A stretch of DNA of 64,000 nucleotides, from positions 662 to 64,661 of IMG/VR virus record IMGVR_UViG_3300033066_000905, one strand, 5' to 3'. The notes under the pieces were generated by a model, which saw nothing but the letters and a program-made list of their open reading frames with translations, was not told where the DNA came from and did not search any database. Below, piece by piece: positions 1,538 through 64,000 of the stretch (the first letter of the stretch is position 1; each line of letters starts with the position of its first letter). The translations under genes were made by a program, and so were the position numbers. The stretch comes from a virus.

Positions 1538-1573
1538 GGGTTTTCCTTAATTTGTAAACCCTATTATAACACC

Positions 1574-1681
1574 TTATCGCTTAATTGTCTCGGACCCGCC
1601 CGTGCGAGTAGGCTGGGGAACGTCCTTTGGCGCTGGGCCAGCGGGCGTCGTGGGTAGCGGAATGCCGCTCTCGTTTACCAT
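1574..1681 (-). CDS. 35-aa Pro-rich peptide
   Basis: MVNESGIPLPTTPAGPAPKDVPQPTRTGGSETIKR. Strong SD AAGGAGG and TGATATAAT at about 1721-1729. Below the ORF-track cutoff. Confidence 0.55.
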   Translation of the reverse strand: MVNESGIPLPTTPAGPAPKDVPQPTRTGGSETIKR

Positions 1682-1729
1682 TATCAGATTTCCTCCTTAT
1701 CTAGCGTATGGATAAATTCTATTATATCA

Positions 1730-2392: not shown

Positions 2393-2408
2393 GTAATTAT
2401 TATACCAC

Positions 2409-3635
2409 TCATCCGTCTAAACCAGTGAAATTTTCTGTCATTTCACCCTTGGAAAAATCCACGTTCATGTAAACACAAAATTCTGGACCACTACGATTTT
2501 TGCGGCTGACGATTTCCATTATGTCCGTGTCATCGTAACGATGCACAGCCATCGCAACATCAGCGTCGTACTGAATTGATCGTGACCACGACACCTGTTC
2601 AAGCATCGGGGGAGAATCGGGAACCGTAAGATCACTGGCGGTCACGGCGCTAATGGCAATGATGGGAATATTGTTTCTTAGTGCCAACCGCTTGAGATCA
2701 CGCGAAATGTTGCGAATCTTTTCTGTTTCGTTGCGTGAACCGGTGCCGTCAGACATTAACTGAATGTAGTCAACCACAACAATGTCTGGCTTGTGCTGAT
2801 CAATCTTTGCTTGCAACACCGAAGGAGTGACCTCCGCAATTCCATCCGAAGAAACAATAATAAAATCCTGCTTATTTGCTACGTTATTCTTGCTCCAAGT
2901 ACGGAAATCGTCGGTGTCAATTGAACCCGTCTGAAAGTCTGCCATACGGAACATTCCGTCACCAAGAGTGGCATAAATCCTGTCCCTCATTGCAGCCGCC
3001 GTCATTTCCATGCTCACAATCATTGGCTTCTTGCCCTGCAAAAATGCCTGCTTGGCGAAATACCCCGACAGCCATGTCTTGCCTCTGCCAGAATAACCAA
3101 GCATGATTACTAGATTGCCCGCCGCAAATCCTGCGGGCATGGACGCGTCAATTGCTCTGAGTCCCGTCTTGATGCCCACGGAGCCGTCGTTGGAATCACG
3201 CATCAAACGAATCGAATCGTAATGCTGCTCTGCGGCCTTCACGTCCGTGACGTTCAAGTCTTTTACCGTGGTCGAATACTTTGCCAGAGTGGTAACGTCC
3301 TTAATCAAAGCGTCAAGGGTTCTGGTGGCGGTGTCTCCGGACAGAGACTTTCCGGCGGTCAACAGTGTTTGCTTGAGTTTCTGTTGCATGAACGACTCAC
3401 GCAACTCATCAAGGTAGTACTGTGTTGGGGCGGTGGTCTCTTCTGGAACAAACTGTCCAAACCTGTTCGTCAAAACCTCAACGTCGGGAACCGCATTGTA
3501 CTTGTGGTAGTAACTAATGAGTCCGTGAATAACGTCTGAGTGTGAAACAAACAGGTCGGTAACGTTTTCTCCAAGCACCACCCCAATGTCCTTGTTCTTG
3601 CACACCGCGCTAATTACCGCAGACTCACTGTTCAT
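2409..3635 (-). CDS. dnaB: Replicative DnaB-like helicase
   Basis: Walker A GYSGRGKT, SMEM, VVVDYIQLM, IQYDAD and KNRSG motifs. Confidence 0.93.
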   Translation of the reverse strand: MNSESAVISAVCKNKDIGVVLGENVTDLFVSHSDVIHGLISYYHKYNAVPDVEVLTNRFGQFVPEETTAPTQYYLDELRESFMQQKLKQTLLTAGKSLSGDTATRTLDALIKDVTTLAKYSTTVKDLNVTDVKAAEQHYDSIRLMRDSNDGSVGIKTGLRAIDASMPAGFAAGNLVIMLGYSGRGKTWLSGYFAKQAFLQGKKPMIVSMEMTAAAMRDRIYATLGDGMFRMADFQTGSIDTDDFRTWSKNNVANKQDFIIVSSDGIAEVTPSVLQAKIDQHKPDIVVVDYIQLMSDGTGSRNETEKIRNISRDLKRLALRNNIPIIAISAVTASDLTVPDSPPMLEQVSWSRSIQYDADVAMAVHRYDDTDIMEIVSRKNRSGPEFCVYMNVDFSKGEMTENFTGLDG

Positions 3636-3948
3636 TCTCTACCCTCTTCCGTGTCTCTTCCAAAATGGCCCGACGACGCTCCGCGTCCTTCTCTTTAATT
3701 ACCGAAAACGTAACAATCTTGTCGTAATTGTTGTACAAAAAACTCAACGAGTGGCGGTCAGAAGAAACCGTCTTGAAATACAAGTCAAGAACAATTCTGG
3801 CCTTTTCAACGCCAAGATCGTCAATCATTGACTCCATGCCCCACTTGTCACGGTACTTGTTAATTCGCGGCTTTACGCCGTACTTACTCAAATAAAGTTT
3901 CTCGTACTGTGACAGCAGAACGTACGGCTCCTGATTTTTTCTGGCCAC
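3625..3948 (-). CDS. Hypothetical protein (possible helicase partner)
   Basis: 107-aa ORF overlapping the helicase start; function inferred from position only. Confidence 0.65.
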   Translation of the reverse strand: MARKNQEPYVLLSQYEKLYLSKYGVKPRINKYRDKWGMESMIDDLGVEKARIVLDLYFKTVSSDRHSLSFLYNNYDKIVTFSVIKEKDAERRRAILEETRKRVENEQ

Positions 3949-4148
3949 TACCCCAACTCCTTCTTGGTCTCCTCAAGTTTCTCAATCAACTTTGCCTCCA
4001 CGTAATTGTACACCCTTTCAACGGCGTCGTCCACGTGTTCTCCGGATCGAACAAAATCTTCCAGACCAATGTCCACACGCAAGGACTGGAAATTTCCGGT
4101 GTTTGCGGTGAATCCAATATTAATTTTAACTTTCGTCGGTTCTGTCAT
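3948..4148 (-). CDS. Hypothetical phage protein
   Basis: MTEPTKVKINIGFTANTGNFQSLRVDIGLED...; SD GAAAGGG; coupled to its neighbours. Confidence 0.7.
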   Translation of the reverse strand: MTEPTKVKINIGFTANTGNFQSLRVDIGLEDFVRSGEHVDDAVERVYNYVEAKLIEKLEETKKELG

Positions 4149-4350
4149 CGTACACCCTTTCGTGATGGAATCCAAGATGCTGCTTCTTTTTTGGGTTTTC
4201 TGGTATTTTTCCTGCGAGTTCCGCGTACGTTATTCCAATGTTTAGCAGGGCCTCAATGTCACCCCGCCGTTTTGCTTCCTTGTGTGCGTCCTGTAGCACC
4301 TTAAGGCTTTTTCTCAGAATTGCGTTTGGAGTCATACTTTCTTTTGCCAT
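4126..4350 (-). CDS. Hypothetical protein
   Basis: 74-aa ORF with SD AAGGAG, in operon. Confidence 0.65.
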   Translation of the reverse strand: MAKESMTPNAILRKSLKVLQDAHKEAKRRGDIEALLNIGITYAELAGKIPENPKKKQHLGFHHERVYDDRTDES

Positions 4351-4358
4351 TTATCTCC

Positions 4359-4886
4359 TTAATATTCTTCTGACGCCCAAATTGGGACGTACCTGCCATC
4401 GTCGGTCCTTCCGTAGAAAAACAGATTGTTGATTGCTGCCGCACGAACTTCCTGCTCGTTTGGCACGCTGCGTGACTTAACCATACCATCCTTTCGGGGT
4501 CTACCGTAATGCATTCCTTTGACAACTTCAAAAATGTTCCACACGTCCTTGCGAGAGAACATGTACATCCCAGGAGCGCCCGTTTCCAGACAGTACGTTC
4601 TTTCTGGTTTTGGTATGAGTCCACGGTACACGTATTCAGAAATTGTGCGCGGAGCGCGGTTAACAATTTTACCGACCTGTGTTCTTGTCAAAGCCTGGTA
4701 TCCGGAACGTTGAACGTCCGACCAAGAATAAATGTACCGCTTTTTCTCGCTGTATTTCCACGCGTACACTTCGTCGGAACTTCTGTTTACGGCCAGAGTC
4801 TTGTGTAGTTTGTCTCCGTAAAAGAAGTACCGCCACTTGCGCCTCTTCTTCTTGTGCCCGATGGGCGAACTCTTTCTGCCAGCCAT
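4359..4886 (-). CDS. Helix-turn-helix DNA-binding protein (MerR/excisionase-like HTH)
   Basis: LTRTQVGKIVNRAPRTISEYVYRGLIPKP HTH pattern; basic N-terminus. Confidence 0.7.
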   Translation of the reverse strand: MAGRKSSPIGHKKKRRKWRYFFYGDKLHKTLAVNRSSDEVYAWKYSEKKRYIYSWSDVQRSGYQALTRTQVGKIVNRAPRTISEYVYRGLIPKPERTYCLETGAPGMYMFSRKDVWNIFEVVKGMHYGRPRKDGMVKSRSVPNEQEVRAAAINNLFFYGRTDDGRYVPIWASEEY

Positions 4887-4894
4887 AACTTTTA

Positions 4895-5059
4895 TTATAG
4901 CGCAGACAGACAGTGACGCGCAACAATTTTTACGGCGGCGAGGTTCTTGCTGCTCATGAACCAGCGTTTTCCACAGTTGAAGCAGTACGCTTCCACGGTT
5001 ATCTTACGGATGTTCATGGAGTCCACAAACACTGTGCCGCCACACTTGTCGCACTTCAT
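4895..5059 (-). CDS. Small zinc-ribbon protein
   Basis: CDKC...CFNC. ATG 5059 lies 5 nt after TGGTACAAT (track start 5086). Confidence 0.65.
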   Translation of the reverse strand: MKCDKCGGTVFVDSMNIRKITVEAYCFNCGKRWFMSSKNLAAVKIVARHCLSAL

Positions 5060-5082
5060 GTCCCATTGTACCATGGGGGGTC

Positions 5083-5868
5083 TCACACAGAAAACTTTTT
5101 TCCGTCAACGACACACGTGTAGTCCGGCTTGATCTCCACCAGCGAAATGTGAGCCTCGTCACCGTCAATGTACCCGTACGCAAAACCCTGCGCCCAGTTG
5201 TGAATGTTGGTGTACGACATGCCGGAACTGGCAATGTCTGACATGTGACCCAATTCGTACCCCCGCAACACTTCGTTGCGAATGTCGTACGTCTTGTGTG
5301 TGGTCGCCAAACGGTGACTGTGGCCACGAATAATTGACACCCCGAAAGAGTCCATGTCCGCTTTTACCGACTCGCCAGCGTGCTTAGAAATGGCAACACC
5401 GTGGTGTGCGTACAAACCGCCGTATCTCAAACGTGGCTTGTCTCCGTAATAAATGTAATCGTAGCCAAGATCGTCCAGCCCCCACAAAGAATTGGGAGTG
5501 ACCTCTTTACTAATTTCGTTAAGTTTCTTGTCCACGTAGTCAAACACACGAACGTCGTGATTGCCCAAAGCGACGAACAGTTCGGCGTTCTTGGCAATTT
5601 TGCGTGTCTGTTCGTACAGTTCACGGGCGCCCTTTGCTTCCGCCTGAATGTACGGCAAAAGATGTTCTGCACCTTCTTCTTTGTAAATATTAATAAACTC
5701 TTGGGACCGGCCCTCTGTCCAACGAGAATAACACGCCTGATCGTCCTGATCACCAAGGTAATCAATCACGTCGGGCTTGAATGATTTCATTACTTTAAAC
5801 CACAGTTCGACCGCTTTGGGATCGTGGTAAGGAATTTGTTGGTCGCTTGAAAGCAGCCACTTACGCAT
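5083..5868 (-). CDS. Calcineurin-like metallophosphoesterase
   Basis: SDQQ, LGD, GNHD, HHG and GHSH motifs; SD AGGAG before ATG 5868. Confidence 0.85.
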   Translation of the reverse strand: MRKWLLSSDQQIPYHDPKAVELWFKVMKSFKPDVIDYLGDQDDQACYSRWTEGRSQEFINIYKEEGAEHLLPYIQAEAKGARELYEQTRKIAKNAELFVALGNHDVRVFDYVDKKLNEISKEVTPNSLWGLDDLGYDYIYYGDKPRLRYGGLYAHHGVAISKHAGESVKADMDSFGVSIIRGHSHRLATTHKTYDIRNEVLRGYELGHMSDIASSGMSYTNIHNWAQGFAYGYIDGDEAHISLVEIKPDYTCVVDGKKFSV

Positions 5869-5928
5869 ATTGTCTCCTATCAATAGACATTGCCACCAGT
5901 GTAACAAACACCGGCAAAGAAATCTACA

Positions 5929-6339
5929 TTAAACTGGGGCGAACGCTACCCAGTTGACTCGCACTAGCGTGCCCTTGGGCACATAGTTACCAGTTTTAGT
6001 ATCAAACACCTGTACGGTGAACTTGGACGCGGTGGTGGCGTCAAATTTTACCCCGATCAGAAAACTGATCATGGGGCCGGTGGTGTTACCATTGGAAACA
6101 ATGACAAACGGCTTCGTTTTAAATTCCTTGCTGCCAAACTTTGACATGTTCATTCCGGCGTGTGCGCCTTCGGAATTGAACTTGATTGCGATGCCGCCAG
6201 TGCTGGACGTGACGGGCTGAACTGTCGAGCCGTACACCACTTGCATGTCCGTGAGTCCGTTAATCACGTCGGCTGACCAATTCAGCCAGCCCAAAGTGAG
6301 GGCTTGGCCCTCGCTCAATTTAGGAATTGGATTACCCAA
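5929..6339 (-). CDS. Hypothetical protein, possibly tail-associated (tail-fibre-tip/lectin-like C-terminus)
   Basis: Beta-rich, with F..KPFVIVS...FTV...VNWVAF pattern typical of phage fibre C-termini. Confidence 0.5.
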   Translation of the reverse strand: MGNPIPKLSEGQALTLGWLNWSADVINGLTDMQVVYGSTVQPVTSSTGGIAIKFNSEGAHAGMNMSKFGSKEFKTKPFVIVSNGNTTGPMISFLIGVKFDATTASKFTVQVFDTKTGNYVPKGTLVRVNWVAFAPV

Positions 6340-6739
6340 TGTCTTCTCCTTGTGTGTGAATTAACAACTCGTTGTTTCCAACAAGTATAGCATCGTTCAC
6401 GCTAAGATTCAAAGCGGTCAAAATGTCCGGCGACACAATTCTTCGGCGGCGGTTATCAGAAATGATCCACAAAGAATCAAGAGACTCCACTGAACGTAAC
6501 AATGTCCCGTCCCTGAAACCAATGTAAGTGTTGGCAAGGGGATAGTTTGCCAATGCTTCTACCGACGTTGGAAACGTTTTAAGGTTCCAAGAGTCCCGCG
6601 CACGCAAAGAAACAAAGGAGTAGCACTTGTGATTCTTAATGAAATAAGTTTGATTACCTACCACCACCGCAATCCCGTTGGGAAATTCTATTGGTCCGGA
6701 CGGTAACGCTAAATTATTCTGCTTCTTGCGTCTGAACAT
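6332..6739 (-). CDS. Hypothetical phage protein
   Basis: ORF in operon, GFRDGTL motif; ATG 6739 preferred (track start 6772). Confidence 0.65.
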   Translation of the reverse strand: MFRRKKQNNLALPSGPIEFPNGIAVVVGNQTYFIKNHKCYSFVSLRARDSWNLKTFPTSVEALANYPLANTYIGFRDGTLLRSVESLDSLWIISDNRRRRIVSPDILTALNLSVNDAILVGNNELLIHTQGEDIG

Positions 6740-6896
6740 TCTCAAGTTCAGCAATCTTTGCGTCTCTTTCATTCAAGAGAGTAATCGCTTCCGCCTTGAC
6801 CTTTGCCAGTTGCTCTTCGTACTGTGAGACAATCTGGCCGATTCGGCCGGTTAGTTCCTGTACTACCATGTCTTGCTGTGATTGTTGTTCTGTCAT
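6714..6896 (-). CDS. Small coiled-coil protein
   Basis: 60-aa heptad-like Q/E/L-rich ORF; ATGA overlap with the upstream gene. Confidence 0.65.
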   Translation of the reverse strand: MTEQQSQQDMVVQELTGRIGQIVSQYEEQLAKVKAEAITLLNERDAKIAELENVQTQEAE

Positions 6897-7210
6897 TGTT
6901 GTGTTGGTCCCTGTTCTAGTAGTTGTCGTCTTCCAATTTCTTGTGAAACTGCTTGGAGTTTTGGAATAACTCTATAAAGAGCATTATACATGTCGTAAAG
7001 TTTGCTGTCAAGGAAATCTTCATCAACTTCCGAGATTTTTTCAAAAACACTGGCGCGCAGGGTACTTTGGTATTCTTCAAGTACCTCTAGGGGCACGGAT
7101 GAACCCATCTGCACCAAATCAATGGCGGTGGCATTGAGGACCGTAGAGCCTTCAGAAATTGTGAGTACTACCTCAAGGTTGGTTTCGTCAATCGTGTACT
7201 TTGCGTCCAT
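6893..7210 (-). CDS. Hypothetical protein
   Basis: ATG 7210 lies 6 nt after TGGTACAAT (leaderless). Confidence 0.6.
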   Translation of the reverse strand: MDAKYTIDETNLEVVLTISEGSTVLNATAIDLVQMGSSVPLEVLEEYQSTLRASVFEKISEVDEDFLDSKLYDMYNALYRVIPKLQAVSQEIGRRQLLEQGPTQQ

Positions 7211-7231
7211 GCGTAGATTGTACCACAAAGA

Positions 7232-10200
7232 CTAACCAATGGCAAAACTGACTTGAGAGAAATCAACGTTTACGGCGTTTCCACCAGCCCCATAACCATC
7301 AACTTGAATCACGCCAGCGGTGGTAATAGTGCATAGTGCATTTCCAAGGGCGGTCCTAGCAATCCACGTAACTTGGTATGGTGGACGGGCTTCTACAGGC
7401 AAAATGTCGCACACCCGTCCAGTAGTTGAGGTAGTGGCGTGCTTTCCCATTCCTCTAATTCTTACCGTAAGATCGGGCATAATTTTGTATTGCATTCCGT
7501 AACCAATGCTGTCAGCATTTGCCCAACTATTATACCACCCCAAATCCTTCCACCCCTGATTACCTTCAATACGTATGTAATCAGCGCCAGAGTTTCCCTG
7601 TACTCTAAACTTTCCTCTAGAATGACCATTAGAAGCCTTTAAAAGATCACTGTCTGTAAAAGTAATTGTTGTTGCGTCAGCAAAAGTATCAAACGTACTA
7701 ATACAGTATCCTGCCGCCTGATCCTCAGCAGCCGCAGGAATAGCGGCGGTGGCAGAAATTTCAGTAGTTACGGCAGGAGTTTGAGTAAACTGTAGGTATG
7801 CCTGACGAACTGTAGTTGCAAACGGACCAGCACCGGTCATATTTGTTATTCCCAAAGATGGTCCGTGGAAAAATGCAACAGCAAAAGAACCTGCATTCAC
7901 CGCTTGAATCATTGCTGGGGTAGCATTAATTTTTGTTGAACCAGTGTAGAAGTTAATCTTTGGCCAATCCTGACCAGTAATGTTAAGATACGTACTGTTA
8001 TTTGTCTCACCACCGCCGTAACCAAGAGCCGCAACAGACGAACTGTCGAATGAACTAGACGATTCAATGCCAATTCGCGGACCTCTGTATCCGTACGACG
8101 CTTCTGTAGCACTGACGTATTTAGACCCACCAACAATTAGACCAGCGTTTGCTTGTGGTGGAGTCCACGTACGAGAATAGCCTTCCCACAGGCCCAGAGC
8201 GTCCACCAAAAATTCTTGTCCCGCTGTCGGGCTGGCCCTATTGTCCGCAACAATTACGGACGCTCCATTGGCATCGGCTGGCATTGCTGGAATAGTGTAG
8301 TAGACTTTTACCCATCCGTCCGTGCTTGTCACCGTTTTGTATCCACTGGTACCCAAAACGGTGTCGGCATAATACGATGGAGTCATTCGCAAATTAATTT
8401 CTACTTCTGTTGGCGTTGTAAGGTTGCCAGGAGAGCCAGAAAGATTGTACGTCTGTCTTCCAGAGACAACACTTCCAAGAGAAGAAACCGTTGCCGTTGT
8501 TCCGGTCCATACTGTCGCACCGATGGGGATTGTTCCTCCCGTAAGATTGCTGTACACCGTCATTGTGCTGCCACTAATTGTAATCATGAATCGACCACCC
8601 TGGAACGGAGAAATGATTACTCTTGCATCAATGGATTCTTGTGCCGCGTACGCTCCAGTTATGGTTGTCGAACTAACGGTTTGGCTCTTATCAACGGTGT
8701 ACGTCCCCTTTTGACCCAGAGCGGGTCCAGTACCGGCCTCGTCCAACAAAAATCCAGTAATTTTTGTGTTTGCTGTTACTCCGGTCCCAGTGATGGTTTG
8801 TCCAATGTACAATGTTCCAGAAGTGTATCCGGTTACCGTTAAAGTAGTTCCAGCAATTGAACCAGTTACCACGCCGGGAGTGGACGCGGGAACATAAAAA
8901 TATGCCATTGCCGTGTAAGCCTTGCCACCCTTTACTCCCCATACCACACTGGTTGTGTTTCCGGTGCCTTGTGTAGCGGCCTTTGTTATCTTAAATGACT
9001 TCCATCCAAATCCATCAGCAATGCCAAACTGTGTTGTTAGCCCCTGAATGGGTTTATTAACCGCCGCTCCATTCCAACCAGCAAATCCTGTTGTGGCCTG
9101 ATTGTACGCCGTCGCGTGGTTTAGACCAAGGATGTTTCTTGACGCCACGTTCATTGTGTTTTGGATCGTTCCGTTATCAGCATAAATGTCACCAAGAATG
9201 GTGGCGCTTGACGACACCAGCGCTCCCGCAGCCGTCACCGAAGTTTTTGAGTTGGTTCCGTTGGCATCATCGGCACCAGCAAAAAACGTAGTTCCAGATG
9301 TTGTTGCCGATAGTGACGTAAATGTTCCAGCGCCCGCGCCAGCGTACAATTGTGTGGCACCAAGCGTCCATCCACCAATAACACCCGACGTTGATTTAAT
9401 TGCTCCCGCAGAAGTTACCTCAAACGCGTTTGTTCCTGAACCGTCAGCGACGGTGCCACCAGCGTAGAATGAAATAGAATCCGCTGTAATCGTTGTTGGG
9501 GAAGAAACAGTTTGAGAAGGAGTAATTGTATATTTGCCAGTTCCTCCTTTTCCAGTGCCAAAGGCTGTAATCTTTGTCCCGGCCGTTACACCCGAACCAC
9601 TCAATGTTTGTCCTACCGCAAGCGATCCAGAAGTTACTGCTGAAACAGTTAATTCTGTACCAGAGATAGTTCCAGTAACAATGGCGGGAGCAGAAATGCC
9701 GGTGTACTTTCCAGAAGCCCCGCCAGCGTACATCTTGTTGTTATCAAAACGCCAACCGCCAATTCCACCAATACCGGTTGCGGACAACAAATAAAAAGTT
9801 TGTTGTTCATCAGCATTATACCCTCCAATGCCAAGGTTAGAAACGGTAACACGAGAACCTGTTGTTGGGGAAGAGCCAGCGTACAGATAGCCACCAGTGT
9901 CTACTTGAACGCTTCCGGTAAATTTTCCGCCAGTTGCAGTAATAGTTCCTCTGAGGGTTAATGCACCAGCACCGTCCCAGTAAAATTGATCACCAAGGCT
10001 AAACTTACCGCTAGTGTCAACATAAAAAGTTGTATTAGAATTGTTGTATGTTCCTGATCCAGAACTAAGATACATTTTTGTTGATGCAAGGTTGATTCCA
10101 CCAACGGTGCCAGAAGTTGCTGTTATGGAGCCAGCAGCGGTCACAAGGAATTTAGCGTTTGTTGCGCTTTTATCACTGGCCCCGGCAAAGAACGAGTTTC

Positions 10201-59544: not shown

Positions 59545-59801
59545 AAGACAGAGAATGGCACCGCTGGCTGCTGGACAAAATGAAAATGGCGCGGGGCTGC
59601 GAAAAATGCGGGTACAACGAACACCCTGCGGCTTTAGAATGGGACCACACGGACCCAACAAACAAATACACAACGGCCGGTGGAAAGAAAGAACACGTTT
59701 CCGACATGGTAGGAAGATACAGTCTCAACACCATACTTGACGAACTCAAAAAATGCAGAGTGTTGTGTGCCAATTGTCATGCGGTTGTTACTCACGGGTA
59801 A
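59538..59801 (+). CDS. Small HNH endonuclease
   Basis: CEKCG...LEWDH...KCRVLCANCH. Confidence 0.85.
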   Translation: MLKDREWHRWLLDKMKMARGCEKCGYNEHPAALEWDHTDPTNKYTTAGGKKEHVSDMVGRYSLNTILDELKKCRVLCANCHAVVTHG

Positions 59802-60474
59802 GATATTTTTGTGCGCTGGCCAGCAGACGTGAAGAATCTTTAAAATAACCAATGCCGGTGTTACACCGAACGCACAGTAAACCGCGCACGCAATCACCGC
59901 AAGAGTACATCCCTGGGCAACAGCCGTGGTCGTGGTCAATGACCAAATTTTCAGCACTTTGACAGATTAAACACCGACCGTCTTGAAGCACCCACAATTC
60001 GTTGTAGTCTAAAATATTGATGCCGTGGCGCAGGCACTTTACGTTCTCTGCCTGCCATTTGCGACACCGCTCACAATACTTTCTTGAGTCGTTGATCGGC
60101 TCCTGACACTCAAAACACTTGCGCCGCCGATTACGTTTTAACGATTTTCTGTACTGCACAAATTGTTTGCGTTGCCACGATTCGTACTCCTGTCGATTTT
60201 TACAGGTGACACACTTGTTTCCACCGGGAACAAACTCGGATTTTGGCCGGTGTTCTTTGCACGAAAAACATGTGCGTTCATTGTTTAATTCCGCCCTACG
60301 TTTTCTTGAACGCTCTCTGTGACGTTCCAATAACACCGGATTCTTTTTGTGTAGTTCTCGACGCGCCTTGTTACGACAATCACGACACTGGGACTCCCTT
60401 TGCTTAGAATTTTTGCGCAACGGGGTGAATTGCTCCGAAGGTTTGCGCTTAAAACAACGCCTGCACATTTTCAT
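59788..60474 (-). CDS. Endonuclease VII-like protein with N-terminal CxxC repeats
   Basis: QDGRCLIC, IDHDH, VRGLLCVRCNTGIG; three N-terminal CxxC pairs. Confidence 0.88.
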   Translation of the reverse strand: MKMCRRCFKRKPSEQFTPLRKNSKQRESQCRDCRNKARRELHKKNPVLLERHRERSRKRRAELNNERTCFSCKEHRPKSEFVPGGNKCVTCKNRQEYESWQRKQFVQYRKSLKRNRRRKCFECQEPINDSRKYCERCRKWQAENVKCLRHGINILDYNELWVLQDGRCLICQSAENLVIDHDHGCCPGMYSCGDCVRGLLCVRCNTGIGYFKDSSRLLASAQKYLTRE

Positions 60475-60680
60475 AAATCAATAATAAAATAATGCACATA
60501 AAAAAGCAAGCGTGTGCCCATACAATGTCCAAAAAAATTGAGCCGCCGTTTATGTGTATGATGCGTAAAAAAAAATAAAAAAAATATGAAAATAGTGCGC
60601 CCATCCCTTCCATTCCAGCCCAAGGTGCGCTAAAATAAAAGTGTAAGGGGGAGGGGAGAGGCCCCTCCGGAGAGGCAAAA

Positions 60681-60818
60681 ATGTTTTTCATGGTTCTCCC
60701 CACTGGCGGGGTTTTCGCCTATGACACCGCGATGGACGCTATCGCCGCTAGCGTCACCTACGGGATGGTCCCGCAGGACGAAATGACAGCGCGGGCACTC
60801 GCGCCGTTCTTCAACTGA
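60681..60818 (+). CDS. 45-aa early hypothetical protein
   Basis: MFFMVLPTGGVFAYDTAMDAIAASVTYGMVPQDEMTARALAPFFN; SD GGAGAGG; promoter TTCCAT-17-TAAAAT (60608-60636). Confidence 0.55.
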   Translation: MFFMVLPTGGVFAYDTAMDAIAASVTYGMVPQDEMTARALAPFFN

Positions 60819-60832
60819 GAGGGTGAGTTGAA

Positions 60833-60937
60833 ATGACAACCATCGTCCTTTTCCTCACGGTCCTGTTCGTGATCTACCGCGTGGCGTACTGGAAGGAACG
60901 CCATATGGGGGCGAGAGACCCCCGACGCACCCCCTAG
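60833..60937 (+). CDS. 34-aa membrane peptide, paralog A
   Basis: MTTIVLFLTVLFVIYRVAYWKERHMGARDPRRTP; paralog at 61651. Confidence 0.7.
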   Translation: MTTIVLFLTVLFVIYRVAYWKERHMGARDPRRTP

Positions 60938-61070
60938 GGGGTGCGTTCCCTTGCACCAAATCGAATGAAACATGCCGCAGCGGCGTCGCCGCGCGGCCGA
61001 TTACACTCTGTTACGAAAGGACTATAAATTCTCTGGACTTTTTCTTTTTACATAACATACCTTATTCAAT

Positions 61071-61182
61071 AATACATACTATATGCATACACATACATAC
61101 ATGTGTGTACATATGCTATGTGTATCAATACATTGTGTGTATATATGCATGTACTATGTATGCATATGCATAGCATGTACAC
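61071..61182. repeat. Alternating purine-pyrimidine low-complexity tract
   Basis: Mostly CA/TG/TA dinucleotides, with many ATGCAT, CATATG, TGTACA and ACATGT palindromes. Confidence 0.8.
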
Positions 61183-61326
61183 GACCACTCACAGTAACGG
61201 TAAAGGAATGGTAAATACCAAGAAATCTTTACCATATAATTGTTGCGTTGGGCTTCCATTCTGTCGGTGTCGTGTGCAATAATGGAAGCATAAGGAAGAG
61301 GGAAAGCCCCTCAAAGAGAGGAAGTC

Positions 61327-61545
61327 ATGCCGAGCACCTACGGAACGTGCAGCGTTTGCCATAGCGTCAATGTTCAAGTCTGGAACACGCTTTGCGGATC
61401 GTGCGCCGTAATCCTTTCCAAGGCTTTGACAGCGGCGCAATGCGCCCCACAATTCGGACACGACGCTTCCGAGTCGTTCCCAACATGGGAAATTGTGGAA
61501 GCGGCCGATAGGGTCGCGGACCTCTTGACAGGAAGGAAGGTGTAG
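61327..61545 (+). CDS. Early zinc-binding hypothetical protein
   Basis: CSVC...CGSC; SD GAGAGGA; upstream promoter-like TTCCAT...AATAAT. Confidence 0.65.
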   Translation: MPSTYGTCSVCHSVNVQVWNTLCGSCAVILSKALTAAQCAPQFGHDASESFPTWEIVEAADRVADLLTGRKV

Positions 61546-61650
61546 CATACAAACATCATACTTTCGTATGATACAAGTACAACCGAATAGGGGATGTGCT
61601 CAAGGGTAGGACATGAGACTATATAAGTAGAGAGAGAGGAAGTGAGAACG

Positions 61651-61755
61651 ATGACCACCTTGGTAATCTTCTTCCTGACAATGTTCCTTATCTACAAGGT
61701 CGCTTACTGGAATGAGCGCCACCTGTCAAAGCATGACAGGCGTAGGACACCCTAG
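61651..61755 (+). CDS. 34-aa membrane peptide, paralog B
   Basis: MTTLVIFFLTMFLIYKVAYWNERHLSKHDRRRTP; SD GAGGA. Confidence 0.7.
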   Translation: MTTLVIFFLTMFLIYKVAYWNERHLSKHDRRRTP

Positions 61756-61823
61756 TCCTAACCCATAATTGAATAGGCGCCGTATTAGCGCCCCGCAAAT
61801 AGCATTAGAAAGGAATGATTGAA

Positions 61824-61955
61824 ATGACAAAAGAGGAAGCACAAATTCAACTAATGAATTTGTCAATGAAAGATTATTGGACAAAAGAGGATAAGAAAGT
61901 AATTGCACAATTGCGAAAGATTGTATTGCCCGAACTCTACGGTAACGCAGAGTAA
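61824..61955 (+). CDS. 43-aa early hypothetical protein
   Basis: MTKEEAQIQLMNLSMKDYWTKEDKKVIAQLRKIVLPELYGNAE; SD GAAAGGA. Confidence 0.55.
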   Translation: MTKEEAQIQLMNLSMKDYWTKEDKKVIAQLRKIVLPELYGNAE

Positions 61956-62192
61956 TTGGCCGCCCGCCCGATTACTCTCTGTTACGAAAGACCAATAAAT
62001 TCGCTGGTTTTGTTACTCTGTGTGATTGCATAATGGACACTATGAATATGCGCATACGCTGATAGTTGTTGTGCCGCAACGACTTTCGAGTGCCCCAAAC
62101 CTGTTGTGCTGCAACGACTTTCGAGGTTCATGCATACAGTAAAGAAACAGTAAAGGTAAAGAAACATTGACCATATTTTCCTGTCCTGGCTA

Positions 62193-62221
62193 TTGACTTT
62201 CACTGTGCCACCCCCCATAAT
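62193..62221 (+). promoter_or_regulatory. Sigma70-type early promoter
   Basis: TTGACT-17-CATAAT, then 6 nt to ATG 62228. Confidence 0.7.
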
Positions 62222-62227
62222 AGAAGT

Positions 62228-62353
62228 ATGAGAGAGATCAAGAAGGTAGGCAACTGGCAGAGGATTTCCTGCCCGTTGGCAGACGATGCCTGCAACTGCG
62301 ACTACTGCTTGGGATACCCCGATGTTGTCAATCCTCACACGGAAGGTGAGTAA
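62228..62353 (+). CDS. 41-aa Cys-rich early peptide (leaderless)
   Basis: MREIKKVGNWQRISCPLADDACNCDYCLGYPDVVNPHTEGE. Confidence 0.55.
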   Translation: MREIKKVGNWQRISCPLADDACNCDYCLGYPDVVNPHTEGE

Positions 62354-62354
62354 C

Positions 62355-62537
62355 GTGAACTTCGTTCAACTCCAAAACGCCCTTATCGCGGGCGATGCCA
62401 GTGGTGCAACCACTGACGAACTCATCAATGCGGAATACCGCTACACCACCCTTGTCTCGCAGGGCGGTATCTACGAGAAAGCGTATCGGCGCCTGCTCCA
62501 GCAGGTCCAGCGCGAACTGGTCTGGAGGTACAACTGA
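62355..62537 (+). CDS. Early hypothetical protein
   Basis: GTG start with SD GAAGGTGA inside track ORF 62286..62537. Confidence 0.6.
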   Translation: MNFVQLQNALIAGDASGATTDELINAEYRYTTLVSQGGIYEKAYRRLLQQVQRELVWRYN

Positions 62538-62653
62538 TGAAACCTCGTCTGGTGTTTCGTAACGGCTTTTACTTTGTGGAAGCGGGCGGCAATTCGTTCA
62601 CAACCACCAATATCAAATCCGCCATTCGACGCCTTGTCGAATTGTCAAAGTAA
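62537..62653 (+). CDS. 38-aa early hypothetical protein
   Basis: TGATG coupling, SD GGAGG; MKPRLVFRNGFYFVEAGG... Confidence 0.55.
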   Translation: MKPRLVFRNGFYFVEAGGNSFTTTNIKSAIRRLVELSK

Positions 62654-62662
62654 GGAAATACA

Positions 62663-62869
62663 ATGCAAATGAAACCAAAGCGACTTCGCTTTCAATACCG
62701 TGCAACATTCGCGGGCGGTAATTCAATTACCTTTGAAACCGCCGATGATCCTACAGAAATGTTGCCAAACGCAATTGATATCAAAACAATTGGAATTGCG
62801 CCGTCCTTTGATTATCCACTAGGAGCGCGGCTCGTTTGCAAGAATAGGATGCTTGGAGTAACAGAATAA
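62663..62869 (+). CDS. Early hypothetical protein
   Basis: 68 aa; SD AAGGA. Confidence 0.6.
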   Translation: MQMKPKRLRFQYRATFAGGNSITFETADDPTEMLPNAIDIKTIGIAPSFDYPLGARLVCKNRMLGVTE

Positions 62870-63033
62870 TGCAAACAATTATTGCCTACGGGCGCACGTG
62901 GGAATGGAACGAATCATTAACGGTAAATGTGTGGGTACACAATAATAACGTGTATTGCTATACTTTATCAGAACCCACCCGCCGTGCCTTTGTGGAATCA
63001 ATTCCTGATATACTTGAGTATTGGGAGGAATAA
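62869..63033 (+). CDS. 54-aa early hypothetical protein
   Basis: TAATG coupling; MQTIIAYGRTWEWNESL... Confidence 0.55.
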   Translation: MQTIIAYGRTWEWNESLTVNVWVHNNNVYCYTLSEPTRRAFVESIPDILEYWEE

Positions 63034-63113
63034 TGACCGGCGAACTAATGCTTATTGCCACAGGAATTCTGGTATTGGCAGAATTAGTTTATGGAATTAT
63101 AAAAAATAAATAA
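63033..63113 (+). CDS. 26-aa hydrophobic peptide
   Basis: TAATG coupling, SD GGAGG; MTGELMLIATGILVLAELVYGIIKNK. Confidence 0.5.
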   Translation: MTGELMLIATGILVLAELVYGIIKNK

Positions 63114-63346
63114 CGATTACTCTCCGTAATCGCCGGGCGACCGACTACTCTCTGTTACGATAGCGCTCATTATTTGCTGGTTTTTCCCAAACCTGTTGCG
63201 GCACAACGACTTTCGAGCCTTCCAAACCCGTTGCGGCGCAACGACTTTCACAATTGTCACTCTCTGTATAATCATACTTTCGGATGATACTAGAATCATC
63301 CTTTTGGGGGATGTGCTTTGTCGGGGGTGTGTGCCACAATATAGAT

Positions 63347-63511
63347 ATGAGAGAAACAGAAGAGACAGTGTACGGAGTGTACTGCGAAGAGTGCGAATTC
63401 TGGCTTGTCCAGGTTCCGTCCAAGAGAATGGCGGAGCGTGAGCGCGACGCTCACACCATGGATTACATGACGTACGGACACACAACGTCCGTTGAAAAGA
63501 TTGAGGAATAG
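63347..63511 (+). CDS. Early C2H2-like zinc-finger protein (leaderless)
   Basis: CEEC...H...H; CACAAT-6nt-ATG. Confidence 0.6.
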   Translation: MRETEETVYGVYCEECEFWLVQVPSKRMAERERDAHTMDYMTYGHTTSVEKIEE

Positions 63512-63516
63512 TTGAA

Positions 63517-63792
63517 ATGAGTACCGAAATTTACAGGCCAGTCGAAGCACCGGCCACCGACATTCCGTTGGGATACCTTTTCGAGAATGAGCAACTTGAG
63601 TTCATTCAAGGTACCGTCAAAAAGTCGCAGTACGTCATCATCGTGACAGAGGCTCACGTCTACTACGTCAAGCCCGACGAAACGGTAGAGGTTTGGGTTC
63701 CGACAGACCTGACAGACATTGAGACTTACAGCAACATTGCTTACCAACTAAAAAAGATTGGGATTGACCTTGACAATCCCGGCAATCACTGA
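63517..63792 (+). CDS. Early hypothetical protein
   Basis: 91 aa; SD GAGGA. Confidence 0.65.
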   Translation: MSTEIYRPVEAPATDIPLGYLFENEQLEFIQGTVKKSQYVIIVTEAHVYYVKPDETVEVWVPTDLTDIETYSNIAYQLKKIGIDLDNPGNH

Positions 63793-63804
63793 AAGAATAG
63801 GATC

Positions 63805-63996
63805 ATGGAAACAGAAGATATCCCGTTGCACGAACAGTCTCCCATCTATCTTGCTACCATTGCAGAAATGGCAAGAGGAGATATTATCTACTACACCCGC
63901 CTTGATTGCCCGAAAGCGGTACAGTCGGCTACTAGGCGCTACATGGAATACACCGAAGCCCTTATCAACGTAACGATCACTAGGGAGATTCTGTAA
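63805..63996 (+). CDS. Early hypothetical protein
   Basis: 63 aa; SD AGGA. Confidence 0.55.
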   Translation: METEDIPLHEQSPIYLATIAEMARGDIIYYTRLDCPKAVQSATRRYMEYTEALINVTITREIL

Positions 63997-64000
63997 TGAA

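What the first reader, a model, noticed from the sequence alone, without database searches (positions are those of the whole stretch)
60997..63184. A 44-bp box recurs about every 1 kb, closing each early mini-operon
Seen: CCGATTACACTCTGTTACGAAAGGACTATAAATTCTCTGGACTT (60997), CCGATTACTCTCTGTTACGAAAGACCAATAAATTCGCTGGTTTT (61968) and CCGACTACTCTCTGTTACGATAGCGCTCATTATTTGCTGGTTTT (63141). All have the same orientation and are spaced 971 and 1173 bp apart. Each follows a GC-rich run just after a stop codon and starts a 200-300-bp non-coding spacer before the next promoter. Inference: the early region is an array of [box - operators - promoter - micro-ORFs] cassettes. The box could be a protein-binding, DNA-entry or nicking signal, or a recombination site allowing cassette exchange (integron-like shuffling of host-takeover genes).
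Basis: partly seen in the sequence, partly recalled or inferred. Interest (0 to 1): 0.72.

Follow-up and report, generated by a model that had tools for sequence, protein, structure and literature searches.

The report
Boundary box between actinophage early operons
The repeated box is real: it is a hairpin fused to an oriented two-part DNA signal that ends each small early operon of a Streptomyces-phage-like virus, the same signal sits at the genome ends of cultured relatives, and what reads it is still unknown.

Summary
The three boxes lie exactly where stated, none is expected by chance, and none occurs elsewhere in the contig.

Two close relatives bring the total to 13 co-oriented copies, 10 of them distinct.
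- the 3' arm of a stem-loop plus a GC block placed just after the stop codon;
- an oriented bipartite motif, TTACGA-N15/16-CTGG-T-run.

A weight matrix trained only on these copies finds, in the 132-kb Streptomyces phage Mildred21, only four co-oriented copies. They lie in the untranslated last 700 bp of its 10.8-kb direct terminal repeat. Jay2Jay and Tomas show the same cluster. Synteny and a conserved 12-mer suggest that window 60565-64000 is the start of such a repeat.

Real promoters lie 40-250 nt downstream of each box.

Three of four cassette-scale differences among the three genomes end at boxes. No recombinase was detected in the window contig, one fragmentary relative or three complete relatives, and no single crossover point exists.

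My best reading (confidence 0.45) is a polar operon-boundary module read on DNA. It doubles as a homology patch for cassette shuffling, like PeSLs, and is not an integron.

The scan had already noted a TTTACG-type oriented repeat on other actinophage DNA (e1-6003588, e1-5967093).

The parts
60565..64000 (+). Early small-ORF array. It is probably the first 3.4 kb of a long direct terminal repeat, read from the physical genome end inward. The repeat boundary is inferred, not shown.
   Evidence: The synteny ThyX - HNH - small-ORF array is the same as at the 10.8-kb terminal repeat of Mildred21 and in Jay2Jay and Tomas. Window, L084 and L093 share a breakpoint at 60564/60565. The contig ends at 64000.
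60593..60604 (+). 12-mer landmark TAGTGCGCCCAT.
   Evidence: It occurs once each in the window, L084, L093, G5 and the fetched parts of Tomas, Jay2Jay and Muntaha. In Mildred21 it occurs once per terminal repeat copy, at 10773 and 131931, the latter 34 nt from the right physical end.
60681..60937 (+). Operon 1: ORFs 60681-60818 (45 aa) and 60833-60937 (34-aa membrane peptide).
   Evidence: The segment 60818-61180 is 87% identical to L093 735-1072, which lies in a different context there.
60974..60997 (+). GC-rich stem-loop directly upstream of box 1.
   Evidence: RNA folds (50-nt window, -19.5 kcal/mol, z -1.9).
60988..61043 (+). Box W1: GC block, CCGATTACACTCTG, TTACGA 61011-61016, 16-nt spacer, CTGG 61033-61036, T-run 61039-61043.
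   Evidence: matrix score 36.5.
61262..61283 (+). Promoter of operon 2, of the form TGTCGGTG-N8-AATAAT.
   Evidence: The comparison with the actinobacterial RecA-NDp/PafBC motif rests on a consensus I recalled.
61327..61955 (+). Operon 2: ORFs 61327-61545 (72 aa), 61651-61755 (34-aa paralogue of 60833-60937) and 61815-61955 (46 aa). An internal hairpin-promoter lies at 61555-61640.
   Evidence: (D11).
61942..61985 (+). Long inverted repeat. Its left arm is the last codons of the 46-aa ORF and its right arm is the 5' half of box 2. The GC block forms the loop.
   Evidence: Fold (101 nt, -28.5 kcal/mol, z -2.9, 0 of 200 shuffles as good).
61959..62014 (+). Box W2: TTACGA 61982-61987, 16-nt spacer, CTGG 62004-62007, T-run 62008-62011.
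   Evidence: score 39.4. In L084 this box is replaced by two tandem boxes, although the flanks are 99-100% identical.
62067..62122 (+). Pair of operator-like repeats (TGTTGYGNCRCAACGACTTTC), repeated at 63194-63249.
   Evidence: D2, I1. L084 has one copy of the first pair.
62193..62221 (+). Sigma-70-type promoter TTGACT-17-CATAAT, six nt before the ATG of a leaderless-looking first gene.
   Evidence: (10 of 12 matches).
62228..63113 (+). Operon 3: six small ORFs (41, about 57, 38, 68, 54 and 26 aa).
   Evidence: It is 94% identical to L084 8091-9120 and to L093.
63114..63132 (+). Small stem-loop CGATTAC-TCTCC-GTAATCG, starting at the base after the stop codon.
   Evidence: The same hairpin is present in L084 (Lb) and L093 (B6). 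L093 B4 has a variant with a G-C to A-T change on both arms.
63132..63187 (+). Box W3: TTACGA 63155-63160, 16-nt spacer, CTGG 63177-63180, T-run 63181-63185.
   Evidence: score 37.1. Homology to L084 stops at 63134 and resumes at 63186. L084 has two boxes and a two-ORF cassette in between.
63319..63340 (+). Promoter of operon 4, TGTCGGGG-N8-CACAAT, followed six nt later by the ATG at 63344.
63344..63996 (+). Start of operon 4 (56-, 91- and 63-aa ORFs). In L093 this operon runs on for six more ORFs to the next box.

Best explanation
The box is the junction module of an early-gene cassette array. The array lies in what is probably the long direct terminal repeat of a lytic actinophage related to the Streptomyces cluster BE phages.

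The box has two separable parts.
1. A stem-loop with a GC-rich block sits right after the last stop codon. It marks or stabilises the 3' end of the upstream transcript.
2. An oriented, non-palindromic, bipartite DNA motif follows: TTACGA, 15-16 variable bases ending in an A/T tract, CTGG, then a T-run. It is about 30 bp long, roughly three helical turns.

I infer that the motif is read on double-stranded DNA by a protein. That protein would be conserved in the host, or in the conserved non-early phage gene set, rather than among the early genes. I infer that the bound site acts as a polar stop or insulator for what travels from the genome end through the early region, above all RNA polymerase. 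Each operon would then be expressed from its own downstream promoter.

Because the same about 55 bp recur every 0.5-1.7 kb, the boxes are also patches of homology. Cassettes are gained, lost and moved there by ordinary recombination, as proposed for PeSL cassettes of T4-type phages.

Shown: the anatomy, co-orientation, placement, conservation in cultured relatives, and breakpoints at boxes. Inferred: protein binding, the stop function and the recombination mechanism.
For: Copies and geometry:
- There are 13 copies in three related genomes, all on the coding strand, 10 of them distinct. TTACGA is invariant and CTGG is present in 9 of 10 (CTGA in one).
- The spacer is 16 nt in 7 of 10 distinct copies and 15 nt in 3 of 10, with free sequence between the blocks.

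Placement:
- TTACGA lies 26-94 nt after the upstream stop in 12 of 12 copies that follow an ORF. The next ATG lies 81-317 nt downstream.

The hairpin is a separate part:
- 9 of 11 window-lineage copies have a stable fold in the 50 nt upstream (z -1.6 to -3.9). None of 4 Mildred21 copies does.
- One compensatory change occurs between hairpin variants.

The box is not the promoter of the next operon:
- A sigma-70-type promoter and TGTCRGKG-N8-NANNNT promoters lie 40-250 nt downstream. The latter give 2 hits in the 64-kb window, both in the array and both on the + strand.

Deep conservation of the motif without conservation of the genes:
- A matrix trained only on the 10 window-lineage copies hits Mildred21 (132 kb, both strands) only at 689, 452, 302 and 219, and at their repeat copies. 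All are co-oriented with the early genes. Shuffled sequence gives 0.4 hits.
- Tomas and Jay2Jay have 3-5 copies in the same place.
- TTTACGA is invariant at two aligned positions in a three-phage alignment whose mean column identity is 72%.
- No early ORF is shared with Mildred21, G4 or G5, apart from generic ones found outside the repeat.

Position at the far end of the early array in relatives:
- In Mildred21 the cluster lies after the last repeat gene and, in the right repeat copy, faces convergent genes.

Breakpoints:
- Three of four cassette-scale differences inside the array end at or include boxes. This is the same picture as RB49 ORFan192 in PMC2839356, section 16.
Against: - There are no RNA data. 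No run listed as RNA holds the region, so neither 3' ends nor 5' ends are known.
- None of the three boxes was scored as a canonical intrinsic terminator on the + strand. The T-run is about 45 nt from the hairpin, and no conserved hairpin abuts it.
- No reader protein is identified.
- In the distant relative G5, two single copies lie 45-70 nt upstream of operons and overlap good sigma-70-type promoters. That fits a promoter-associated role better than a stop.
- In the BE phages the inter-gene gaps carry a different palindrome, and the motif is confined to the repeat terminus, with a degenerate copy at the physical end of Mildred21. That fits a DNA-end function as well.
- A spacer that varies by one base is more typical of promoters than of rigid DNA-binding proteins.
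- Intergenic DNA is where breakpoints survive anyway, and one indel in the array (a 49-aa ORF in L093) is flanked by another repeat, not a box.
Confidence: 0.45

Rival explanations
1. Signal for a DNA-end process. The bipartite motif would be read by the packaging machinery (a terminase binding array next to the cut site, like cosB or pac) or would control stepwise genome entry, like the injection-stop region in the terminal repeat of phage T5. In this lineage it would have been multiplied along the repeat.
For: - In Mildred21, Jay2Jay and Tomas, all 3-5 copies lie in the untranslated last 700 bp of the long terminal repeat.
- A degenerate copy ends at the physical left end of Mildred21, and the three phage ends align there.
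- G5 has a cluster of at least five copies beside paired DnaA boxes 3 bp apart. That arrangement is described for the T5 repeat regions, which are likewise better conserved than the repeat's ORFs (bioRxiv 10.1101/866236, section 15).
- The motif is conserved although the early genes are not.
Against: - In the window lineage the copies are spread over at least 5.4 kb, one per operon end, each coupled to a stop codon and a hairpin. A cut-site array or a single stop signal does not predict this.
- There are no DnaA boxes in window 60.5-64 kb or in L093.
- The far end of this lineage's repeat has not been sequenced, so whether it also has a terminal cluster is unknown.
Confidence: 0.2
2. Promoter for a non-standard form of host RNA polymerase. 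TTACGA would be the -35 element and CTGGnT the -10 element, giving a second, differently timed transcript that reads through the spacer into each operon.
For: - Two asymmetric blocks lie 15-17 bp apart with free spacer sequence, co-oriented with the genes. This is classic promoter geometry.
- In G5 the motif overlaps sigma-70-type promoters and follows CRP-like palindromes placed near -62.
- An earlier follow-up in this scan read a related element as promoter-like (e1-5967093, unchecked).
Against: - The would-be -10 element is G/C-rich (CTGG, CAGG, CCGG), which is unlike any -10 element I can recall.
- No sigma-70 region 2 or single-subunit RNA polymerase gene was found in the window contig or in four relatives, two of them complete. 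The control for the latter family rang in no control genome.
- In Mildred21 such promoters would fire off the genome end or into convergent genes.
- Each operon already has its own promoter.
- The tandem pair in L084 has nothing to transcribe between its two boxes.
Confidence: 0.15
3. RNA-level element. The hairpin plus the conserved single-stranded blocks would act in the transcript, as a processing or stability signal or as an antitermination site of the nut type.
For: - The hairpin starts at or next to the stop codon and shows one compensatory change.
- All copies lie on the sense strand.
Against: - The bipartite blocks show no conserved pairing.
- The Mildred21 copies have no hairpin and lie in untranslated terminal DNA.
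- No Rfam family matched beyond chance-level microRNA hits on the neighbouring low-complexity tract.
Confidence: 0.08
4. Integron-like site-specific recombination site. The box would be an attC-type site cut and joined by a dedicated recombinase to capture and shuffle cassettes.
For: - Cassettes are bounded by boxes.
- One cassette lies at two different places in two genomes.
- Several boxes are imperfect inverted repeats ending in GTTAC.
Against: - No tyrosine or serine recombinase was found in the window contig, in the fragmentary G001, or in the complete G004, G005 and Mildred21. Controls rang in 14 and 13 of 14 genomes.
- Cassettes carry their own promoters.
- The same cassette has dissimilar boxes on both sides in two genomes, so there is no fixed crossover point.
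- GTTACGA does not fit the attC core GTTRRRY (consensus recalled).
Confidence: 0.03

Closest known systems
PeSL (promoter-early stem-loop) cassettes of T4-type phages (Arbiol et al. 2010, PMC2839356, abstract and sections 13 and 16 read; Comeau et al. 2014, PMC4122927, abstract only)
   Same: Both are repeated composite motifs of about 50-100 bp with a stem-loop, placed between small orphan early genes and starting at the upstream stop codon. In both, an ORF is flanked by two motifs in one phage where a relative has one motif. In both, the shuffling is explained by recombination between the repeats.
   Different: In PeSLs the conserved part is a consensus sigma-70 promoter immediately before the next gene. 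Here the conserved part is a non-promoter-like bipartite motif next to the upstream stop, and the real promoter is a separate element 40-250 nt further on. The host is an actinobacterium, and the array lies in a probable terminal repeat. Mini-circles were not tested.
Untranslated repeat regions and injection-stop signal of the phage T5 left terminal repeat (Davison, bioRxiv 10.1101/866236, abstract and section 15 read)
   Same: Both are long terminal repeats of about 10 kb full of small early genes. In both, non-coding repeats are better conserved than the repeat's ORFs, and repeats cluster at one boundary of the repeat. In the relative G5 they lie beside DnaA boxes paired 3 bp apart.
   Different: There is no sequence likeness. 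T5 has three repeat regions, not one copy per operon. No DnaA boxes occur in the window's array. Two-step entry is unknown for these phages. The T5 signal itself is unexplained.
Terminal-repeat gaps of Streptomyces cluster BE1 phages (Mildred21, Jay2Jay; Hughes et al. 2018, PMC5764925, whole text read; the paper does not mention these motifs)
   Same: The gene order ThyX - HNH - small-gene array is the same, and promoters of the same type occur in both. A GC hairpin follows each gene. The same bipartite TTACGA-N16-CNGG-TTT motif is found by a matrix trained on the window lineage.
   Different: In BE1 the inter-gene gaps carry the palindrome GTCCGGGnCGGAC after the hairpin, and the bipartite motif is confined to 4-5 copies at the repeat terminus. 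In the window lineage the bipartite motif follows every operon.
Stoperators of mycobacteriophage L5 and conserved inverted repeats of Streptomyces phage phiC31
   Same: All are many copies of one protein-binding site in short intergenic gaps of actinophages. L5 sites are asymmetric, in one orientation relative to transcription, and stop elongation when bound.
   Different: Those sites are 13-17 bp, are read by the lysogeny repressor and are scattered genome-wide. Here the site is about 30 bp and bipartite, confined to the early or terminal region of an apparently lytic phage, and has no known reader.
Integron attC sites
   Same: Both involve an array of co-oriented cassettes, each ending in an imperfect inverted repeat.
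   Different: Here there is no integrase, the cassettes have their own promoters, there is no fixed crossover point, and the core sequence does not fit.

Membership tests
PeSL cassette (T4-type phages) | Repeated intergenic motif containing a stable stem-loop. | tested here: met
   9 of 11 window-lineage copies fold with z -1.6 to -3.9 in the 50 nt upstream of TTACGA.
PeSL cassette (T4-type phages) | The conserved motif is itself a sigma-70 consensus early promoter, followed by a ribosome-binding site and a start codon. | tested here: not met
   The two conserved blocks are TTACGA and CTGG. Promoter-like sites are separate and lie 40-250 nt downstream. The next ATG is 81-317 nt away.
PeSL cassette (T4-type phages) | Indels and replacements between close relatives are bounded by the motifs. 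| tested here: met
   Three of four cassette-scale differences among the window, L084 and L093 end at or include boxes. One does not.
PeSL cassette (T4-type phages) | Circular excision products (mini-circles) with a chimeric motif. | not testable with these tools
No reads were examined.
Integron (attC / IntI) | A tyrosine recombinase encoded with the array. | tested here: not met
   PF00589 gave 0 of 5 records, including the complete relatives G004, G005 and Mildred21, and the control rang in 14 of 14 genomes. PF00239 also gave 0 of 5. The window contig is only about half a genome.
Integron (attC / IntI) | Promoterless cassettes, with a single crossover point in a conserved core. | tested here: not met
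   Each unit has its own promoter. The same cassette has unlike boxes on both sides in L084 and L093, with homology starting about 8 nt before CTGG and ending before the next GC block.
Canonical intrinsic terminator | A G+C-rich hairpin followed at once by a U-run. | tested here: not met
   No + strand terminator-like site was scored at any of the three boxes. The T-run lies about 45 nt after the hairpin and has no conserved hairpin of its own.
Sigma-70-family promoter | A -35-like and a -10-like hexamer 16-18 bp apart. | tested here: inconclusive
   The geometry fits (15-17 bp), but the second block is CTGG/CNGG and not A/T-rich. The scan did not list it. No phage sigma factor was found.
T5-type terminal-repeat signal (injection-stop region) | Untranslated repeat cluster at the boundary of a long terminal repeat, with paired DnaA boxes. 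| tested here: inconclusive
   This is met in relatives: the Mildred21, Jay2Jay and Tomas clusters, and the G5 cluster with paired DnaA boxes. It is not seen in the window, whose copies are dispersed and lack DnaA boxes. The far end of the repeat is not in any contig.
Stoperator-like polar protein roadblock | A specific protein binds the site and stops elongation in one orientation. | not testable with these tools
   Only co-orientation (13 of 13 copies) and intergenic placement could be shown.

The most novel reading that the evidence does not exclude
The bipartite TTACGA-N16-CNGG motif is a polar 'stop' signal on DNA, read by a conserved host or virion factor. It would meter how far the terminal repeat is transcribed or drawn into the cell. 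This would be an actinophage counterpart of the unexplained T5 injection-stop signal. In this lineage it would have been copied behind every early operon, so that host-takeover genes are released one operon at a time.
Probability: 0.12. Interest if true: 0.85.

Novelty: new variant of a known kind. Interest (0 to 1): 0.6.

Why it matters
The box ties an uncultured river and wastewater phage to a signal also present at the genome ends of cultured, easily grown Streptomyces phages (Mildred21, Jay2Jay, Tomas). The one paper on those phages that I read in full does not mention it.

This makes an otherwise untestable metagenomic motif directly testable by RNA-end mapping, DNA pull-down, end mapping and entry assays.

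It could show how long-terminal-repeat phages insulate or meter their host-takeover genes. It also adds an actinobacterial example of regulatory repeats that double as cassette-shuffling points.

Tried and rejected
Searches and tests that led nowhere:
- Rfam search of 60000-64000 at E up to 5. Only chance-level microRNA models matched, on the CATA-rich tract 61070-61182, and nothing matched at the boxes.
- Nucleotide search of 60500-64000 against 50,697 phage records gave no match.
- Box core as an exact pattern in IMG/VR gave 0 stretches.
- A GC-block + TTACGA + CTG pattern in IMG/VR gave 41 stretches. Only the record of L084 is real (3 matches). The other 40 are single hits that look like coding sequence by eye and lack the T-run context.
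- Related loci by the 91-aa early protein: 1 viral contig, 1 metagenome contig, L093, and none in genome contigs.
- Related loci by the DUF7178 protein: none.
- Related loci by the cassette-X protein: one further contig, L155, at 51% identity and without the motif.
- Homologues of the 91-aa protein: 4 proteins.
- Sequencing runs: 20 of 24 listed runs hold the stretch or part of it, in 8 studies (river, wastewater, digester, freshwater). No RNA holder is listed.
- Gapped-dyad enumeration in G4 and G5 was swamped by coding-sequence composition.
- Local alignment of window 60441-60700 with the Mildred21 repeat boundary scored no better than shuffles (32 against a maximum of 31). Only the exact 12-14-mer is informative.

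Readings considered and dropped. All consensus sequences in this list are recalled, and none was tested against a library:
- Sigma-54, ECF, SigB/SigF-type and BldN-type promoters on either strand. The spacings or hexamers do not fit.
- A MotA-box-like element, IHF, and the Streptomyces AdpA, DasR and GlnR sites. They do not fit.
- rrn/lambda boxA. The likeness is limited to the window's own three copies.
- IS200/IS605-type ends. No transposase was seen.

Papers:
- PMC2839356: abstract and sections 13 and 16.
- PMC4122927: abstract only.
- PMC5764925: whole text.
- bioRxiv 10.1101/866236: abstract and section 15.
- PMC6789036: four passages by 'find'. These do not print the RecA-NDp consensus, which I give from memory.
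- I found no description of the motif in the listings, or in PMC5764925. The other listed papers were not opened, and supplements are closed, so the motif may be in print.

Full report
**Observation**

A 20-nt degenerate core with up to three mismatches finds exactly these three and none in 100 dinucleotide shuffles. The rest of the 64,661-bp contig has none. The window is bases 662-64661 of that contig, an IMG/VR virus record rated 48% complete, and the window's end is the contig's end. The repeat family extends to 56 nt.

**What the genome is**

The minus strand of 1-54 kb carries primase, DnaB-type helicase, a class II ribonucleotide reductase, portal, prohead protease, capsid and several tail proteins of 2,000-3,100 aa. 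The plus strand from 54 kb carries ThyX, glycosyltransferases and an HNH endonuclease. From 60.7 kb it carries only ORFs of 26-91 aa.

The portal is 59-61% identical to those of Streptomyces siphophages of the cluster BE kind, namely Tomas, Muntaha, BillNye and Mildred21, which are 120-134 kb. A WhiB-family protein and DUF7455 in the extension of the array fit an actinobacterial host.

**Relatives that carry the box**

By portal, 356 IMG/VR stretches encode a relative of the query. Only one, the 26-kb record behind L005 and L084 (75% portal identity), carries the box. The one metagenome scan gave L093, a 7.4-kb contig at 95% identity in the 91-aa early protein. It runs 3.8 kb beyond the window's end.

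Together the three sequences hold 13 copies, all on the coding strand: 3 in the window, 4 in L084 and 6 in L093. Ten are distinct.

**Anatomy**

I aligned the copies on the invariant TTACGA. Each then reads, from 5' to 3':
- a stem-loop;
- a GC-rich block, GCCGCGCGGC or CCGCCCG;
- about 14 less conserved bases, often CGAYTACnCnCnG;
- TTACGA;
- W-W-R;
- a free spacer ending in an A/T tract and one G or C;
- CTGG (CTGA once);
- 0-2 bases and a run of T.

The distance from TTACGA to CTGG is 16 nt in 7 of 10 distinct copies and 15 nt in 3 of 10.

The stem-loop takes several forms.
- It is a long inverted repeat whose right arm is the box's 5' half and whose left arm is the end of the upstream ORF, as at box 2 (-28.5 kcal/mol, better than all 200 shuffles).
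- It is a 7-9-bp hairpin starting at the base after the stop codon, as at box 3, L084 Lb and L093 B4 and B6. One G-C to A-T change affects both arms among these.
- It is a GC hairpin, as at box 1 and L084 La1.

In the 50 nt upstream of TTACGA, 9 of 11 copies fold with z between -1.6 and -3.9. No conserved hairpin abuts the T-run. The terminator scan lists no + strand site at the boxes.

**Placement**

TTACGA starts 26-94 nt after the upstream stop in 12 of 12 copies that follow an ORF. The 13th copy follows another box. The next ATG is 81-317 nt downstream. Every gap over 150 nt between operons in the array has a box: 6 of 6 in L093, and 3 of 3 in each of the window and L084. Shorter gaps with internal promoters have none.

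The real promoters are separate elements. TTGACT-17-CATAAT lies six nt before a leaderless-looking ATG at 62228. Sites of the form TGTCRGKG-N8-NANNNT lie at 61262 and 63319, and behind four further boxes in the relatives. In the 64-kb window this pattern occurs only twice, both times here and on the + strand. This pattern resembles the actinobacterial RecA-NDp/PafBC promoter as I recall its consensus. The passages I read in PMC6789036 describe the motif as non-palindromic but do not print it.

**Breakpoints**

BLAST among the three sequences, read against the sequences themselves, shows four cassette-scale differences inside the array.

1. Homology between the window and L084 is 99% up to 61956, the stop of the 46-aa ORF, and 100% from 62046. 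In between, box 2 (89 bp) is replaced by two tandem boxes (135 bp).
2. Homology stops at 63134, after the small hairpin, and resumes at 63186, after the T-run. L084 has there the rest of one box, a two-ORF cassette and another box. The same cassette, 89% identical, lies in L093 between two other boxes, 1.6 kb further along. Its homology begins about 8 nt before CTGG and ends just before the next GC block. The box cores on either side differ between the two genomes.
3. The module 60818-61180 (34-aa peptide, box 1, CATA-rich tract) lies before the 72-aa ORF in the window and after it in L093. It is absent from L084.
4. A 49-aa ORF is present only in L093. It is flanked by a duplicated stretch of about 60 bp, not by a box.

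Three of the four therefore involve boxes. This is the picture drawn for RB49 ORFan192 and the PeSL cassettes (PMC2839356, section 16). However, the box cores are less conserved than their flanks. There is no single crossover point, and no tyrosine or serine recombinase was found in the window contig, in the fragmentary G001, or in the complete G004, G005 and Mildred21. Ordinary recombination at short repeats fits. An integron does not.

**The link to cultured phages**

Mildred21 has the same order of ThyX, HNH and small-gene array. That array is its 10,818-bp direct terminal repeat (PMC5764925, Table 1). The offset of 121,158 between duplicated hits confirms the repeat.

Its inter-gene gaps read GC hairpin with a TTCG loop, then the palindrome GTCCGGGnCGGAC (10 copies), then a promoter with a TAGACT -10 element. 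The bipartite motif is absent from these gaps. It occurs four times (689, 452, 302, 219), co-oriented with the early genes, in the 917-bp untranslated stretch after the last repeat gene. A degenerate copy ends at the physical left end.

A two-block weight matrix trained only on the 10 window-lineage copies, scanned over all 131,976 bp on both strands, hits only these four sites and their repeat copies, with scores of 18-24.5. Shuffled sequence gives 0.4 hits. Tomas has copies at 715, 677, 649 and 239, and Jay2Jay at 677, 641, 443, 314 and 220. In a three-phage alignment of this stretch, with 72% mean column identity, TTTACGA is invariant at two aligned positions. None of the window-lineage early ORFs has a homologue in the repeat of Mildred21.

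The 12-mer TAGTGCGCCCAT occurs once in each genome or fragment examined. In Mildred21 it lies 34 nt from the right physical end. In the window it is at 60593, about 30 nt beyond the breakpoint at 60564/60565 that all three close relatives share. I therefore infer, but have not shown, that the window from about 60565 is the start of a long terminal repeat read from the genome end inward.

**A more distant lineage**

The complete 108-kb relative G5 (62% portal identity) has TTACGA-N17-CTGAAA five times on one strand within 8.4 kb, plus two looser copies seen by eye. A cluster at 9.3-9.9 kb lies beside DnaA boxes paired 3 bp apart. Single copies at 12553 and 18052 lie 45-70 nt before operons, overlap good sigma-70-type promoters and follow TGTGA-N6-TCACA palindromes. 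The matrix recovers only one of these copies, so kinship with the window's motif is probable, not proven.

Earlier follow-ups of this scan described an oriented TTTACG repeat beside DnaA sites (e1-6003588) and a two-box-plus-hairpin cassette (e1-5967093) in lake actinophages. I reached the G5 copies before reading those notes and did not examine their DNA.

**How it most likely works**

The features are:
- two asymmetric conserved blocks about two helical turns apart;
- strict co-orientation with early transcription;
- a position after the 3' hairpin and before a separate promoter;
- conservation across lineages that share no early genes;
- in the BE phages, a position at the far end of the early array, where the right repeat copy meets convergent genes.

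The reading that covers most of these is a DNA site bound by a conserved host or non-early phage protein. It would act as a polar boundary, with the hairpin marking the transcript's 3' end. I put this at 0.45.

A DNA-end function (packaging or staged entry) explains the BE and G5 clusters better, and the one-per-operon pattern worse (0.2). A promoter explains the geometry and the G5 single copies. It fails on the G/C-rich second block, on the Mildred21 context and on the presence of separate promoters (0.15). An RNA element (0.08) and an integron-like site (0.03) are less likely. No sigma factor or single-subunit RNA polymerase was found in the window contig or four relatives, two of them complete. 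The control for the polymerase family rang in no genome, so that blank is weak.

**Novelty**

The kind of thing is known: repeated regulatory junction modules between orphan early genes that double as shuffling points (PeSLs), and conserved untranslated repeats in a long terminal repeat (T5). The motif, its split from the promoter, its fusion to 3' hairpins in this lineage and its presence at the repeat termini of cultured Streptomyces phages are, as far as my two literature listings and the one paper read go, not described. I rate it a new variant of a known kind, with interest 0.6. The interest comes mainly from the fact that the cultured relatives make the function testable.

Noticed in passing
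window 61262-61283 and 63319-63340; L084 9218 and 9813; L093 4890 and 5385: The early promoters read TGTCRGKG-N8-NANNNT, often six nt before a leaderless-looking ATG. This resembles the actinobacterial DNA-damage (RecA-NDp/PafBC) promoter as I recall it. In the 64-kb window the pattern occurs only at these two places.
   Followed up: partly
window 60593-60604: The 12-mer TAGTGCGCCCAT occurs once in each related genome or fragment examined. It lies 34 nt from the right physical end of Mildred21. It may be part of the end-forming site and predicts a genome terminus near window 60565.
   Followed up: partly
Mildred21 (L147) 778-10089, minus strand: Ten copies of the palindrome GTCCGGGnCGGAC, most of them directly after a GC hairpin with a TTCG loop, in the gaps between terminal-repeat genes. 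This looks like an operator-like site of the BE1 phages. PMC5764925 does not mention it.
   Followed up: partly
Mildred21 (L147) about 740-917, minus strand, aligned with Jay2Jay and Tomas (alignment A3, columns 1-180): After the last repeat gene, a conserved TTGACA-17-TAACAT promoter is followed by a conserved long hairpin whose arms appear, by eye, to change together between phages (CCCCAGGGG...CCCTGGGG against CCCTGGGGG...CCCCAGGG). This is a candidate small RNA.
   Followed up: no
G5 (L100) 9833/9845, 6913/6925 and 16366/16378; G4 87250/87262: DnaA-box consensus sites occur in pairs 3 bp apart next to the motif cluster. The same pairing is described for the T5 terminal repeat.
   Followed up: partly
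G5 (L100) about 18075 and 12575, minus strand: Near-perfect CRP-type palindromes TGTGA-N6-TCACA lie just upstream of the motif, centred near -62 of the overlapping promoter.
   Followed up: no
window 61555-61577 and 63271-63293: The hairpin ATCATACTTTCGKATGAT is followed by GGGGATGTGCT and a -10-like site. This is a second promoter type, used inside operon 2 and before operon 4, and is conserved in L084 and L093.
   Followed up: no
window 60833-60937 and 61651-61755; L093 748-852 and 1221-1325: These are paralogous 34-aa membrane peptides (MTT(I/L)V...YWxERH). One of them travels with box 1 and the CATA-rich tract as a module of about 360 bp.
   Followed up: partly
window 59788-60474 (minus strand): A 228-aa Cys-rich protein with an endonuclease VII/HNH-like C-terminal motif (by eye, not scanned) lies just outside the array. 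Its coding DNA is present in the window and, in part, in L093 (the first 242 nt of L093 are 100% identical to window 60323-60564). It is absent from L084, as expected of a homing-type insertion.
   Followed up: no
L093 1333-1394 and 1541-1602: A direct repeat of about 60 bp, containing the hairpin GGCGCCGTATTAGCGCC, flanks a 49-aa ORF found only in L093. This indel is not bounded by a box.
   Followed up: partly
L093 4067-4273, 4467-4643, 5413-5970 and 6341-6586: Beyond the window's end the array encodes a WhiB-family protein, DUF7455, DUF7178 and DUF3846.
   Followed up: partly
L093 4814-4850; L084 9143-9180: In the two boxes that precede the mobile two-ORF cassette, the T-run is followed by TTTCGTAA. 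This is the reverse complement of the first block, which makes these copies nearly palindromic.
   Followed up: no
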